Assembly: GCA_965153285.1 (NCBI GenBank)
Contig: OZ229119.1
Source: Podarcis tiliguerta
Taxonomy: Eukaryota
Direction: 5' to 3' (one strand)
Length of the DNA: 64,000 nucleotides
Shown: positions 9,001 to 12,000 of the stretch, piece by piece
How the letters are laid out: each line of letters starts with the position of its first letter
Numbering within the stretch: position 1 is the first letter of the stretch
Made by a program: the position numbers

Positions 9001-12000
9001 GATTAGTACCTTATTCAGCTATCTCCCACAGCCCTGCCACCATCTATGGACTCAAGAGAACGTGTCCCCTGCAATATTCCCATCTCTCTAGCCTTGCAGG
9101 AGTCACAAGATAGAAAAATCATGACTTTGCCTTGACTGGACTTTACCTGCTTAACCTGACCTTGCACACTAACAATTTGCCTGCCACGACCAGATGCTAC
9201 CTGCTTTTCCTGCAAATCTCAACGCTCCTGTGGAACAGGACGAACAGTGGGATTCTAAGAAAGTGTCCTTGAAAATGTGTCCCAAAGGTTCCAACAATTA
9301 GCCAGAAGTAAAATGAAGCAGTATGATCTTGAGAAGGTACCCTTGGGATAAAAAAACTGCAAAACAAATCAACATCTTCTACAGAATAGTATTTTGGTAT
9401 GCCCTCCGGTGGCAAAAAAAAGTATCTTTAATATCAGTTCGAACTGCATTTTGAAGGACTCATTTTGGTTCATTCAAAAATACCTAAGGAAAATAGAAGC
9501 GTTGTTTTTACCGGGTTTTCAAAACAAGCTTTATTGCAGAGACTTTGGGAGGAGGCCAGGGAGCTCCTAGTCCTTCTGGGCTGCTGCTTTCCTCATTGTT
9601 TCCAGGGTACTGTTCAGTTCCTCCTGCTTCTTCTTGGCTTGGATGAAGTCCCCACCCTTTTCTTGTTGAACTGCACAGCTCATTTGTCTTTGGAGATCTT
9701 GAACAGCACCACCACACATATCTTTTTGGAGACGAGGCAGCATGTCTCCTGGATCGTGTCTTACACAAACTTGGTGTGCTTGGTCAGGTGTCCAAGGCAT
9801 TGGGATGACTTTGCCCCATTCTTAGTCACCTTGTGGCCCCTGTTCAGGCGAAGGGCCACTGGGCAGCAGATTGCCATGGCTGCCACAGCTGCTGCTTCGT
9901 CTAGGCCATGCCCAAAAAATAAATCAGCTAAGTAAAATAGAGGTCACGATGGGCACTTCATTTGCCTTTTCACTGCCACATACACCTTTTCTCGGCCTTT
10001 TCAACCCATGTGCTCCACTTTCATCTCTCATGCTTTCTTTCTGCTTGCAGTACAATGCCGTCTGGATTGTACAGATGGCCTCTTGGCCCCTTCCAATTCA
10101 GATGTAAAGTTCCTAGGAAGTTTCTACCACATCACTTAAATCACTGAATCGGAAAGAACAGCATTCAATCCCGGCAAGCTGAGGAGATTCCCACCTGCAG
10201 AGGAGAAATGGGTGCACCTCTGTGCTGCACTGCGGAAACATTGCACGAGTACTGCCAGAACATGCAATGCAACTACAATGCACTACAGCTGCCACCCAGC
10301 AGTGATGAACAGCTCCGATTCTTGTACAGTGCCAAAAGTTGGAAAGCCCCAGCTTCTCATAGAAACAAGGAAATGAAGGTGAAGCTGACACCCTGATACA
10401 AGGACTTCACACTGTTCTTGCCCACAGGAGACTAGACATGTAGTGCCTTCCGTGGGAACAATTCACCCAGGAGGCATAATTAAAAGCAACAAGGACAGGA
10501 CCAAACAAGAGCTCAGCCTGCTAATTCTGGCAGTGCACTGGAAGCCAACACACTGGAAACAAATGCACTCCTCAAGCACTACTGTGGGAAAGGGAACACT
10601 GCAGCTCTAGTCAACACACACAAAAGGGCAAGAGGAGAGGGAACGTTCTCTGTCTCTCCAATCATGAAGAAAAAAATGTTATCTGCTGCTTCTTCAGCTC
10701 CAGGATATTTGACCTCAGAGCCACATGGAATGATGACTAAACATTTGCCCACAAGCCTTGGCTCAGGAAAGGATGGAGAAGGCGGTTGTAAATGTACAGC
10801 CAGTTGTAAATGATTGTGATGAGGATGACGATACTTACGTTATTGAGACCCGTGCTTGAGACCCCACTGCTCATGTTGAGGCTATTCCAAAGGTGAGTGC
10901 TGGCTCTTTCACAGTGGCCAAAGGAGCTCTGCTGCCCATCTGCCTTGCTTGACAAGGAGGCATTCATGGCTTTGCACACATGAAAGACAGCTTTTACAAG
11001 GGCATTCCTAGAAAGGAGGGAAGAGAGAAGAGAAAGATCCCAAGCCAGGAACAAGGTCAGTGCCTTTAAGGTATTGTGGTCGTGGACCAACCACCTCCAT
11101 AAGCTCCATAAGCCTCTCACTTACTAAGTTGCCATAATAAATAATAACAATGTTATTAAATTTCTATACCACTCATCATAACATAATATCAAACAAAAAC
11201 AACCTCCCCAACACACACAGTTTAAAAGGCCATAGATTGCTTAGATTAGCCAAGGGGCCTAGGAGAAGAGGAATGATTTTGTCTGGCACCTAAAGGTGTA
11301 TAATGAAGGTGCCAGGTGAGCCTCTCTGGGGAAAGCATTCCACAAACAGGGAGCCAACACAGAAAAGGCTCATCCTCATGTTGCCCCTTTTCTGGACTTC
11401 TTGAGGCGGCACATGAAGAAAGGCCTCACCAGCAGAATGGGAATCCTCAACACCACCTCTAAGACCAGATCTGTCAGCTCAGGCAGAAAGACTGCTGGGC
11501 AGTGAGGTGGGCAGTAAACCAGCAGAATCTCTAATCTGTTCTGATTCCCAGTGCCAGGAACACACACTCCAGATCCTCCACCCAACTGGACAGAGAGCCT
11601 GAAGGGAGAGAGAGAAAGAATCTCTCTATAGACCAGAGCAACTCCCCCTCTCCGACCCTCAAGTCTGGCCTGATGCTGCACTGAGTACCCAGATGGCCAC
11701 AGCTGGATGAGACCAATTCCACCCTGCATGTAACACTTAGAAGAGTCTTTGCATCCACCACCCCAGTGCCTGATAGCTGGTATTTTCAGTTAATACAATC
11801 TCAAAATACTGCAGCTTAGTTTGGAAACTATTTAAAGTGACAAAAGGCAATTGTGAGAGTAATGCAAAAAGGCCACACACTCCATCATCTCCAAACATTT
11901 AGGAATTCGCTCCACGTTGGTAAACTGGGATCTCACGGCTGCATCATCACCCCTGAGCCAGCTGATTGTCATTGTGATTGCGGATGACCACCACCTGCAC

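What the first reader, a model, noticed from the sequence alone, without database searches (positions are those of the whole stretch)
9484..9941. TSD-flanked RPL36 retrocopy beside miR-33a, bringing a sense-strand poly(A) signal into SREBF2 intron 16
Seen: an intronless, full-length RPL36 copy (ATG 9877, TAG 9567). It has two in-frame stops (9763, 9682) at Arg positions consistent with CpG decay, one frameshift near 9650, a pyrimidine-rich 5' remnant, AATAAA at 9535-9530 and a 14-bp TSD (CTAAGGAAAATAGA 9484-9497 / CTAAGTAAAATAGA 9928-9941). It is sense to SREBF2 and about 300 bp downstream of pre-miR-33a. Inference: its poly(A) signal could terminate transcripts inside intron 16, giving a miR-33a-bearing RNA and a C-terminally truncated SREBF2 lacking exons 17-19 (part of the SCAP-interacting regulatory domain). 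That would uncouple miR-33a output from full-length SREBF2. The sense-strand TSD is not A-rich, unlike mammalian L1 TT/AAAA targets, which hints at mobilisation by another LINE such as an RTE.
Basis: partly seen in the sequence, partly recalled or inferred. Interest (0 to 1): 0.72.

Follow-up and report, generated by a model that had tools for sequence, protein, structure and literature searches.

The report
Dead RPL36 retrocopy in lizard SREBF2 intron
This is an old, broken, intronless copy of the ribosomal protein gene RPL36 that landed in intron 16 of a lizard's SREBF2 gene just after the miR-33 hairpin; it is an ordinary processed pseudogene, and nothing in the sequence shows that it changes how SREBF2 or miR-33 is made.

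Summary
A complete RPL36 (eL36) retrocopy lies on the minus strand at 9941-9484. It has the stated ATG, two in-frame stops, one frameshift, TAG, AATAAA and a 13/14 target-site duplication. The duplication is matched by 1 of 1000 shuffles and 1 of 1011 real-sequence controls.

The host is SREBF2: 19 coding blocks on the minus strand, closest to Podarcis, not human. The copy is sense to SREBF2, in intron 16 (10838-8117), 278 nt downstream of a full mir-33 hairpin.

The copy is old: 61 of 102 codons are kept, about 0.20 substitutions per nonsynonymous site.

The functional inference is not supported and cannot be tested here.
- The AATAAA is one of 36 sense-strand AATAAA/ATTAAA hexamers in the gene, and one of 5 in this intron.
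- Two context heuristics disagree about its quality.
- The upstream 5' splice site has the consensus GTAAGT, and the intron is short.
- No RNA data or orthologous introns were available.

The RTE hint fails. The published Bov-B/Sauria "Tn-TA" insertion signature is absent. So is the mammalian L1 TT/AAAA motif.

Verdict: an ordinary processed pseudogene, of low interest.

The parts
9928..9941 (-). 5' copy of the target-site duplication (plus-strand reading CTAAGTAAAATAGA)
   Evidence: 13/14 match to 9484-9497. Matched by 1 of 1000 shuffles and 1 of 1011 real-sequence controls.
9878..9927 (-). 50-nt leader between the TSD and the ATG. Its T-rich start may be a 5' UTR remnant or an extension of the duplicated target.
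   Evidence: The extended repeat of 17/21 covers 9921-9941. The parental 5' UTR was not available for comparison.
9567..9877 (-). Intronless RPL36/eL36 coding remnant, residues 1-105 plus the stop codon. It is disabled.
   Evidence: tblastn E 7.4e-23 plus a second-frame HSP. Pfam PF01158 on fragments. PDB eL36 matches. 61 of 102 codons keep the residue.
9761..9763 (-). In-frame TAA at eL36 Arg41
   Evidence: At least 2 changes from any Arg codon.
9793..9794 (-). Site of a 6-bp in-frame deletion (Arg29-Arg30 missing). Placement is good to within a codon or two.
   Evidence: a two-residue gap in every alignment.
9680..9682 (-). In-frame TGA at eL36 Arg68
   Evidence: One change from CGA or AGA.
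9646..9648 (-). One-base deletion (frameshift) in or beside the His80 codon
   Evidence: the alignment continues in another frame from here to the TAG.
9536..9566 (-). 31-nt 3' UTR remnant
9530..9535 (-). AATAAA hexamer carried in by the retrocopy
9500..9519 (-). Decayed A-rich tail (11 A in 20)
   Evidence: P = 0.006 against the strand's A content of 0.264.
9484..9497 (-). 3' copy of the target-site duplication (plus-strand reading CTAAGGAAAATAGA)
10220..10288 (-). pre-miR-33 hairpin
   Evidence: Rfam RF00667: 78.9 bits (gathering 50), E 4.9e-17, model positions 1-69 of 69.
8117..10838 (-). SREBF2 intron 16 (2,722 nt). The 5' splice site is AAC|GTAAGT and the 3' splice site is a pyrimidine tract followed by CAG|ATG.
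   Evidence: tblastn of named SREBF2 references plus reading of the junctions.
10839..11008 (-). SREBF2 exon 16 (start approximate)
7928..8116 (-). SREBF2 exon 17 (end approximate)

Best explanation
A spliced, polyadenylated RPL36 mRNA was reverse-transcribed and inserted by target-primed reverse transcription into intron 16 of SREBF2, in an ancestor of this lacertid-like lizard. The insertion lies in the sense orientation, 278 nt downstream of the miR-33 hairpin. Most probably a poly(A)-dependent L1-type LINE did this.

The copy had no promoter or function of its own and has decayed neutrally since. It now carries two stops, a frameshift, a 6-bp deletion and about 20% change at nonsynonymous sites. 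Today it is most likely transcribed only as part of the SREBF2 pre-mRNA and removed with the intron. miR-33 is cropped from the same intron upstream of it.

Shown here: identity, completeness, lack of introns, disablement, TSD, orientation, position and age class.
Inferred: the LINE class that moved it, and the absence of any effect on SREBF2 3'-end choice.
For: Identity and anatomy:
- tblastn E 7.4e-23 across residues 1-87, with the C-terminus in a shifted frame.
- Pfam PF01158 and 15 PDB eL36 sequences match.
- The coding remnant is contiguous over 311 nt, followed by AATAAA 31 nt after the stop and an A-rich remnant, 11/20 A, P 0.006.
- The TSD is 13/14, matched in 1/1000 and 1/1011 controls.

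Host and orientation:
- 19 SREBF2 coding blocks lie on the minus strand from 37424 to 6175. The Podarcis cluster representative P0001 fits best: 93.2% mean identity, 6 of 19 HSPs at 100%. Ten other named sauropsid references give 80-90%.
- mir-33 is at 10288-10220 on the minus strand.

Neutral decay: 61 of 102 codons are kept, and at least 46 nucleotide changes fall on about 233 nonsynonymous sites (0.20; JC 0.23). The five reference proteins (snake, gecko, turtle, bird, frog) differ from one another at only 8 of 105 columns.

Nothing special about the poly(A) signal:
- 36 sense hexamers in the gene and 5 in the intron.
- Consensus GTAAGT 5' splice site and a 2.7-kb intron.
- None of 54 named SREBF2 proteins ends in the 33-residue intron-16 read-through peptide. 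This is weak evidence, because the set was not collected for this purpose.

L1-type mobilisation: in non-mammalian chordates retrocopy number correlates with L1 copies and with no other LINE class. Anolis has 404 retrocopies, though lizard was not in the repeat count (passages of PMC3136929).
Against: - The nick site implied by the TSD has flank ...CC, and the TSD starts TCTA. This is not the TT/AAAA of mammalian L1, so the L1 assignment rests on the poly(A)-type 3' end and on general knowledge.
- A search for TTAAAA + Anolis + retrotransposon found 0 papers. The target preference of squamate L1 is therefore not documented in the searched library.
- The TSD is better preserved than the body predicts: P(>=13/14) is 0.02 at d = 0.20 and 0.06 at d = 0.16.
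- By one heuristic the AATAAA has a good U-rich downstream stretch. The best 20-nt window is 65% T, rank 3 of 40, and is supplied by the 3' TSD copy and the flank. A low level of cleavage cannot be excluded.
- No RNA data and no orthologous introns could be examined.
Confidence: 0.85

Rival explanations
1. The retrocopy's AATAAA is used as an intronic poly(A) site. This gives an RNA that carries the miR-33 hairpin and encodes SREBF2 residues up to the end of exon 16 plus a 33-residue intronic extension, lacking exons 17-19. miR-33 output would then be partly uncoupled from full-length SREBF2.
For: - An intact AATAAA lies in the sense orientation downstream of the hairpin.
- A U-rich stretch lies 31-60 nt after the hexamer: the best 20-nt window is 65% T, rank 3 of 40.
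- The exon-16 reading frame stays open for 33 codons into the intron, so a stable truncated ORF is possible.
- SREBF2 is known to use an intronic poly(A) signal in mammals, but in intron 7 in male germ cells (one passage each of PMC12243911 and PMC6617714).
Against: - The hexamer is one of 36 sense hexamers in the gene and one of 5 in the intron.
- There is no UGUA within 100 nt upstream.
- The fixed +10..+50 window is poor: T 0.30, G+T 0.42.
- A retrocopy carries the hexamer but not the parental element downstream of the cleavage site (inference from the established order of poly(A) signals).
- The 5' splice site is the consensus GTAAGT and the intron is short. By recalled knowledge, both favour splicing and U1-dependent suppression of intronic sites.
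- Survival of the hexamer is expected by chance (P 0.21-0.35).
- No annotated truncated protein appeared among 54 named SREBF2 entries.
- Among the 4 papers holding both SREBF2 and 'intronic polyadenylation', the two I opened name intron 7 or give no intron. The other two were seen only in the listing.
Confidence: 0.05
2. The mRNA was mobilised by a LINE other than L1, such as an RTE/Bov-B element, as the reader hinted from the non-A-rich target.
For: - The implied nick site is not TT/AAAA-like.
- Bov-B LINEs have been active for a long time in squamates, including Podarcis muralis (passages of PMC13295347).
Against: - The published Bov-B/Sauria signature is three T about 10 nt upstream of the TSD and a T|A junction, with the TSD starting with A in the LINE or T in the SINE. 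Here the 30 nt upstream hold no TT at all, and the junction is C|TC.
- Bov-B copies and their SINEs end in microsatellite-like repeats and share a specific 3' end. This copy ends in AATAAA plus an A-rich remnant.
- Retrocopy numbers correlate with L1 only.
Confidence: 0.07
3. The flanking repeat is a chance match, and the true target-site duplication is lost or different. One such case would be an endonuclease-independent insertion at a DNA break.
For: - The repeat does not start with A's.
- It is better preserved than the body's divergence predicts.
- Short two-copy repeats are common: one search lists 14 repeat families in 801 nt.
Against: A 13/14 match placed exactly at both ends of the copy was reached in only 1 of 1000 shuffles and 1 of 1011 real-sequence controls. 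Its length of 14-21 nt is typical of target-primed insertions.
Confidence: 0.03

Closest known systems
Ribosomal-protein processed pseudogenes (LINE-1-mediated retrocopies)
   Same: The copy is intronless and covers the full coding region. It has a poly(A) signal, an A-rich tail remnant, a 14-21-nt TSD and disabling mutations, with no sign of constraint. Ribosomal protein genes are among the most often retrocopied parents in mammals (passage of bioRxiv 10.64898/2026.06.26.734816).
   Different: The host is a squamate, where retrocopies are about tenfold rarer than in human: Anolis 404 against human 4738 (PMC3136929 passages). The implied nick site lacks the TT/AAAA motif.
Mammalian Srebf2_v1 (germ-cell SREBF2 isoform made from an intronic poly(A) signal in intron 7)
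   Same: It is a premature poly(A) site inside an SREBF2 intron that gives a C-terminally truncated product (passages of PMC12243911 and PMC6617714).
   Different: That site is in intron 7, upstream of the miR-33 intron, and no retrocopy is mentioned in the passages seen. Its use is documented experimentally. For the site here there is no evidence of use at all.
mir-33 in intron 16 of SREBF2 (miR-33a)
   Same: A full-length RF00667 hairpin lies in the sense orientation in the 16th intron of SREBF2. Chicken has the same arrangement (start of the abstract of PMC3953336 in the listing).
   Different: Nothing differs. The hairpin itself is ordinary and is not touched by the insertion.
Bov-B LINE / Sauria SINE insertions of squamates ('Tn-TA' signature)
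   Same: The host clade is the same, and both are TSD-flanked non-LTR insertions.
   Different: There is no T run one helical turn upstream, no T|A junction, and no Bov-B-type tail or microsatellite end.
Premature polyadenylation at sense-oriented retroelements in introns (recalled for mammalian L1; not checked in any call)
   Same: A sense-strand AATAAA was brought into an intron by retroposition.
   Different: L1 bodies carry many A-rich signals, whereas this copy brings one hexamer. No effect has been shown here.

Membership tests
Processed pseudogene (retrocopy) of RPL36/eL36 | Sequence similarity to eL36 over the whole coding region | tested here: met
   tblastn E 7.4e-23 plus a second-frame HSP, covering residues 1-105. 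PF01158 on 2 of 4 fragments, below the cut-off because the fragments are short. 15 PDB eL36 sequences.
Processed pseudogene (retrocopy) of RPL36/eL36 | No introns where the parental gene has them | tested here: inconclusive
   The coding remnant is contiguous over 311 nt. That the parental RPL36 gene of this species has introns in its coding region is general knowledge. It could not be checked, because no eukaryotic genome collection was on hand.
Processed pseudogene (retrocopy) of RPL36/eL36 | Poly(A) signal and A-rich tail at the 3' end | tested here: met
   AATAAA at 9535-9530. The tail remnant at 9519-9500 has 11 A in 20, P 0.006. The tail is heavily decayed.
Processed pseudogene (retrocopy) of RPL36/eL36 | Target-site duplication at both ends | tested here: met
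   13/14 match, 17/21 when extended. Matched in 1/1000 and 1/1011 controls.
Processed pseudogene (retrocopy) of RPL36/eL36 | Disabling mutations or lack of constraint (pseudogene rather than retrogene) | tested here: met
   Two stops, a 1-nt deletion and a 6-bp deletion. 41 of 102 codons are changed against a protein that varies at 8 of 105 columns among five tetrapod references.
L1-mediated insertion (mammalian-type signature) | First-strand nick at TTTT/AA, so that the TSD starts with A's after TT on the sense strand | tested here: not met
   The flank ends ...CC and the TSD starts TCTA. The motif is recalled for mammalian L1. The preference of squamate L1 is unknown to me, and one search found no paper on it.
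L1-mediated insertion (mammalian-type signature) | Poly(A)-dependent 3' end and a TSD of about 7-20 nt | tested here: met
RTE/Bov-B-mediated insertion | 'Tn-TA' signature: a T run about 10 nt upstream of the TSD and a T|A junction | tested here: not met
   Definition taken from passages of PMC13295347. The 30 nt upstream hold no TT, and the junction is C|TC.
RTE/Bov-B-mediated insertion | 3' end shared with Bov-B, or a microsatellite-like terminal repeat | tested here: not met
   The 3' end is AATAAA plus an A-rich remnant. No Bov-B consensus was available for direct comparison.
mir-33 precursor (Rfam RF00667) | Covariance-model match above the gathering score, full length | tested here: met
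   78.9 bits against 50, model positions 1-69 of 69.
Functional intronic polyadenylation site | Hexamer with supporting upstream (UGUA) and downstream (U/GU-rich) elements | tested here: inconclusive
   The hexamer is present and there is 0 UGUA upstream. The downstream score is low in a fixed window and high in a sliding window (rank 3 of 40). These are heuristics of my own, not a validated predictor.
Functional intronic polyadenylation site | Transcripts that end there in vivo | not testable with these tools
   No RNA data of any kind was available.

The most novel reading that the evidence does not exclude
The retrocopy-borne AATAAA, helped by the U-rich duplicated target just downstream, is used at a low or tissue-specific level. 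It would give a lizard SREBF2 transcript that ends in intron 16, still yields miR-33 and encodes an SREBF2 lacking the last 172 or so residues of the regulatory domain. That would make it a lineage-specific, retroposition-born way of shifting the miR-33 to SREBF2 ratio. Its old age and intact hexamer would then reflect retention rather than chance.
Probability: 0.05. Interest if true: 0.45.

Novelty: new member of a known kind. Interest (0 to 1): 0.12.

Why it matters
As it stands it matters little. It is one more ribosomal-protein processed pseudogene in an intron.

It has three minor uses:
- It is a dated presence/absence marker for lacertid or squamate phylogeny.
- It is one data point on the target sites used when mRNAs are retroposed in squamates, where retrocopies are far rarer than in mammals and the responsible LINE has not been shown directly.
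- It is a clean natural test case for whether a sense-oriented retrocopy poly(A) signal next to an intronic miRNA is tolerated because it is ignored.

Only if RNA data showed real cleavage there would it bear on the coupling of miR-33 and SREBF2.

Tried and rejected
- Pfam on the four stop-bounded fragments gave only sub-threshold hits, on 2 of 4. tblastn with named references settled identity instead.
- The first protein search with the 38-residue fragment was below the tool's minimum length. The 60-residue ORF found only 2 relatives. A third search seeded with the named beaver eL36-like protein supplied the reptile references. I used only five named references (snake, gecko, turtle, bird, frog) and left unnamed records out.
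- Poly(A) context: two home-made scores point in opposite directions. I take neither as decisive.
- I looked for an annotated SREBF2 protein ending in the intron-16 read-through peptide. Among 54 named proteins there was none: only six 8-residue internal matches at E 7-9.8, and 3 unnamed records were left out. The set was gathered for another purpose, so this says little.
- Intron 16 against the whole window gave only two short non-self matches (8434-8530 and 8417-8449). None touches the retrocopy or its flanks, so the copy is not embedded in a repeat that recurs in this window.
- The plus-strand ORF of 167 codons antisense to the copy has no Pfam match and no ATG until near its end. I rejected it as a gene.
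- Orthologous empty-site test: not possible. Whether other squamates carry the copy stays unchecked.
One exon ORF was searched on its own, and the exon map comes from tblastn of named proteins against the window.
- Structure prediction, fold search, complex prediction, the protein atlas and the representative-protein search were not used, because nothing open depended on them.
- Supplementary tables of PMC13295347 (TSD lists for Podarcis muralis) were not opened. They could refine the Tn-TA comparison.
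Full report
WHAT THE WINDOW IS

The window has no N and a CpG observed/expected ratio of 0.30.

One ORF that contains an exon (10740-11120, minus strand) was searched on its own. It found 57 SREBF2 proteins among 450 candidates. Squamates came first: Podarcis lilfordi cluster representative 97%, Anolis sagrei 95%, Varanus 93% over the exon part.

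tblastn of 11 named sauropsid SREBF2 proteins against the window gave 19 coding blocks on the minus strand, from 37424 to 6175. The Podarcis representative P0001 fitted best:
- 93.2% mean identity, including HSP ends that run into introns.
- 6 of 19 HSPs at 100%.
- The other ten references gave 80.2-90.0%.

The window is therefore the complete SREBF2 gene of a lacertid-like lizard. It is not human. The exon map rests on these per-exon alignments.

Rfam finds exactly one family in the window at gathering threshold. It is mir-33 at 10288-10220 on the minus strand, 78.9 bits, full length. The hairpin lies between the 16th and 17th coding blocks.

Reading the junctions gives intron 16 as 10838-8117 (2,722 nt). 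The donor is AAC|GTAAGT, and the acceptor is a pyrimidine tract followed by CAG|ATG.

THE OBSERVATION

- ATG 9877.
- TAA 9763-9761.
- TGA 9682-9680.
- Frameshift at about 9648-9646.
- TAG 9569-9567.
- AATAAA 9535-9530.
- The two 14-mers at 9484-9497 and 9928-9941.

Five named eL36 references (rattlesnake, gecko, turtle, emu, fire-bellied toad) hit this place and nowhere else with any strength.
- Residues 1-87 align to 9880/9877-9623 at 52-53% identity, E down to 7.4e-23.
- The last 26 or so residues continue in another frame to 9570.
- Other hits in the window had E of 0.18 or more.

Pfam PF01158 matched the N- and C-terminal fragments only below its cut-off (23.8 and 13.7 bits against 27). 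The two short middle fragments matched nothing. Fifteen distinct PDB eL36 sequences matched the N-terminal fragment.

Both stops fall on Arg positions. TGA is one step from CGA. TAA needs at least two steps from any Arg codon.

AGE

Against the five references, which differ among themselves at 8 of 105 columns:
- 61 of 102 aligned codons keep the residue.
- The changed codons need at least 46 nucleotide changes over about 233 nonsynonymous sites.
- That gives 0.20 per site, or 0.23 with Jukes-Cantor correction.

The parental protein is almost invariant, so nearly all of this change is on the pseudogene branch. The copy is old. Many of the changes are CpG-type changes in Arg codons. Removing about eight of them leaves roughly 0.16.

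I give no date in years, because I have no rate from a call.

THE DUPLICATION AND WHAT MOVED THE COPY

Such a match arose in 1 of 1000 shuffles of the flanks. It arose in 1 of 1011 pairs of real stretches of the same geometry elsewhere in the window.

The repeat finder extends it to 17/21 (9477-9497 / 9921-9941). Part of the T-rich 'leader' may therefore be duplicated target.

The tail between the hexamer and the TSD is A-rich: 11 of 20, P 0.006.

One mild inconsistency remains. Two copies that each diverged by 0.16-0.20 should be about 65-71% alike. That makes 13/14 improbable (P 0.02-0.06), while 17/21 is unremarkable (P 0.10-0.24). The CpG-rich body probably decays faster than an AT-rich repeat without CpG. 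I could not test this.

On the sense strand the flank ends in CC and the repeat starts TCTA.

The alternative it proposed fails a direct test.
[quoted passage not shown] It has three T about ten nucleotides upstream of the TSD and a T|A junction. The elements end in microsatellite-like repeats and share a specific 3' end (passages of PMC13295347).
- Here the 30 nt upstream of the repeat contain not a single TT, and the junction is C|TC. The 3' end is AATAAA plus an A-rich remnant.
- In ten non-mammalian chordates retrocopy number correlated with L1 copies and with no other LINE class. Anolis had 404 retrocopies, but lizard was left out of that repeat count (passages of PMC3136929).

An L1-type, poly(A)-dependent element acting at an atypical site therefore remains the most likely agent. 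This is inference. A search for TTAAAA + Anolis + retrotransposon returned no paper.

THE FUNCTIONAL INFERENCE

Points against the AATAAA being a used poly(A) site:
- On the sense strand there are 75 AATAAA/ATTAAA hexamers in the window. Of these, 36 lie within SREBF2 (23 are AATAAA) and 5 lie in intron 16 alone: 9535, 9432, 8905, 8834, 8732.
- The retrocopy's hexamer has no UGUA in the 100 nt upstream.
- A retrocopy carries the hexamer but not the parental downstream element, which lies beyond the cleavage site. This is inference from the established layout of poly(A) signals.
- The donor of intron 16 matches the consensus GTAAGT, and the intron is short.
- Survival of a 6-mer at this divergence is expected in 21-35% of cases.
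- None of 54 named SREBF2 proteins ends in the 33-residue read-through peptide. The set was not built to find one.

Points that leave the question open:
- The downstream context is ambiguous. In a fixed +10..+50 window it is poor (T 0.30, G+T 0.42).
- The best 20-nt window within +10..+65 is 65% T, rank 3 of 40 sites scored between 4000 and 37424. That stretch is the 3' TSD copy and the flank.
- These are my own heuristics and decide nothing.

Literature:
- Of 309 papers holding at least two of miR-33, SREBF2 and 'intronic polyadenylation', none of the 12 listed holds the third term.
- Four papers hold both SREBF2 and the phrase.
- In the two I opened, the case is the rodent germ-cell isoform Srebf2_v1, made from a signal in intron 7 (one passage each of PMC12243911 and PMC6617714). 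Intron 7 lies upstream of the miR-33 intron.

It cannot be tested without RNA data and orthologous introns, neither of which the tools offer.

COMPARISON AND VERDICT

This is a textbook processed pseudogene of a ribosomal protein gene, in a clade where such copies are about ten times rarer than in human. It sits beside a conserved intronic microRNA. The miR-33 arrangement matches that reported for chicken (start of the abstract of PMC3953336 in the listing).

It is a new member of a known kind. Interest is low. The boldest reading still open is real intronic cleavage that shifts the miR-33 to SREBF2 ratio, which I put at about 5%.

Noticed in passing
window 45720-46010, 47555-47851, 49411-49749 (minus strand): Three ORFs match Pfam PF15002 (ERK-JNK_inhib, the CCDC134 family) at E 3.1e-24, 1.3e-05 and 9.1e-10. 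A CCDC134-like gene therefore lies upstream of SREBF2 on the same strand. By recall, this is the same neighbourhood as in mammals.
   Followed up: partly
window 36001-38000 and 62001-64000: Two GC-rich blocks (0.583 and 0.533, against about 0.44 elsewhere). The first holds SREBF2 exon 1 (37424-37341) and is probably its CpG-island promoter. The second has long ORFs open on both strands (up to 262 codons) and may be the 5' end of another gene.
   Followed up: no
window 9432-9932 (plus strand): A 167-codon stop-free stretch runs antisense to the retrocopy, one of the longest in the window. It has no ATG until its last 30 or so codons and no Pfam match. It is most likely a by-product of the coding strand's codon make-up.
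   Followed up: partly
window 32765 and 23948 (minus strand): Two sense-strand AATAAA hexamers in SREBF2 introns are each followed by a run of 10-11 G. They look like copies of one dispersed repeat family.
   Followed up: no
window 1-255 and 1533-1847 (minus strand): Near-identical ORF text recurs in two places downstream of SREBF2, which suggests a dispersed repeat. A separate fragment at 8434-8530 in intron 16 recurs at 45223-45320 at 72% identity.
   Followed up: no
window 5148 (minus strand): An AATAAA lies about 1.0 kb downstream of the SREBF2 stop codon (6174-6172), with one UGUA upstream. It is the best candidate for the gene's normal poly(A) signal, and others follow at 4331-4100.
   Followed up: partly
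window 9484-9941: The target-site duplication (13/14) is better preserved than the roughly 0.2 per-site divergence of the retrocopy body predicts, P 0.02-0.06. This is unexplained. It could reflect CpG-driven faster decay of the body or an already diverged source transcript.
   Followed up: partly
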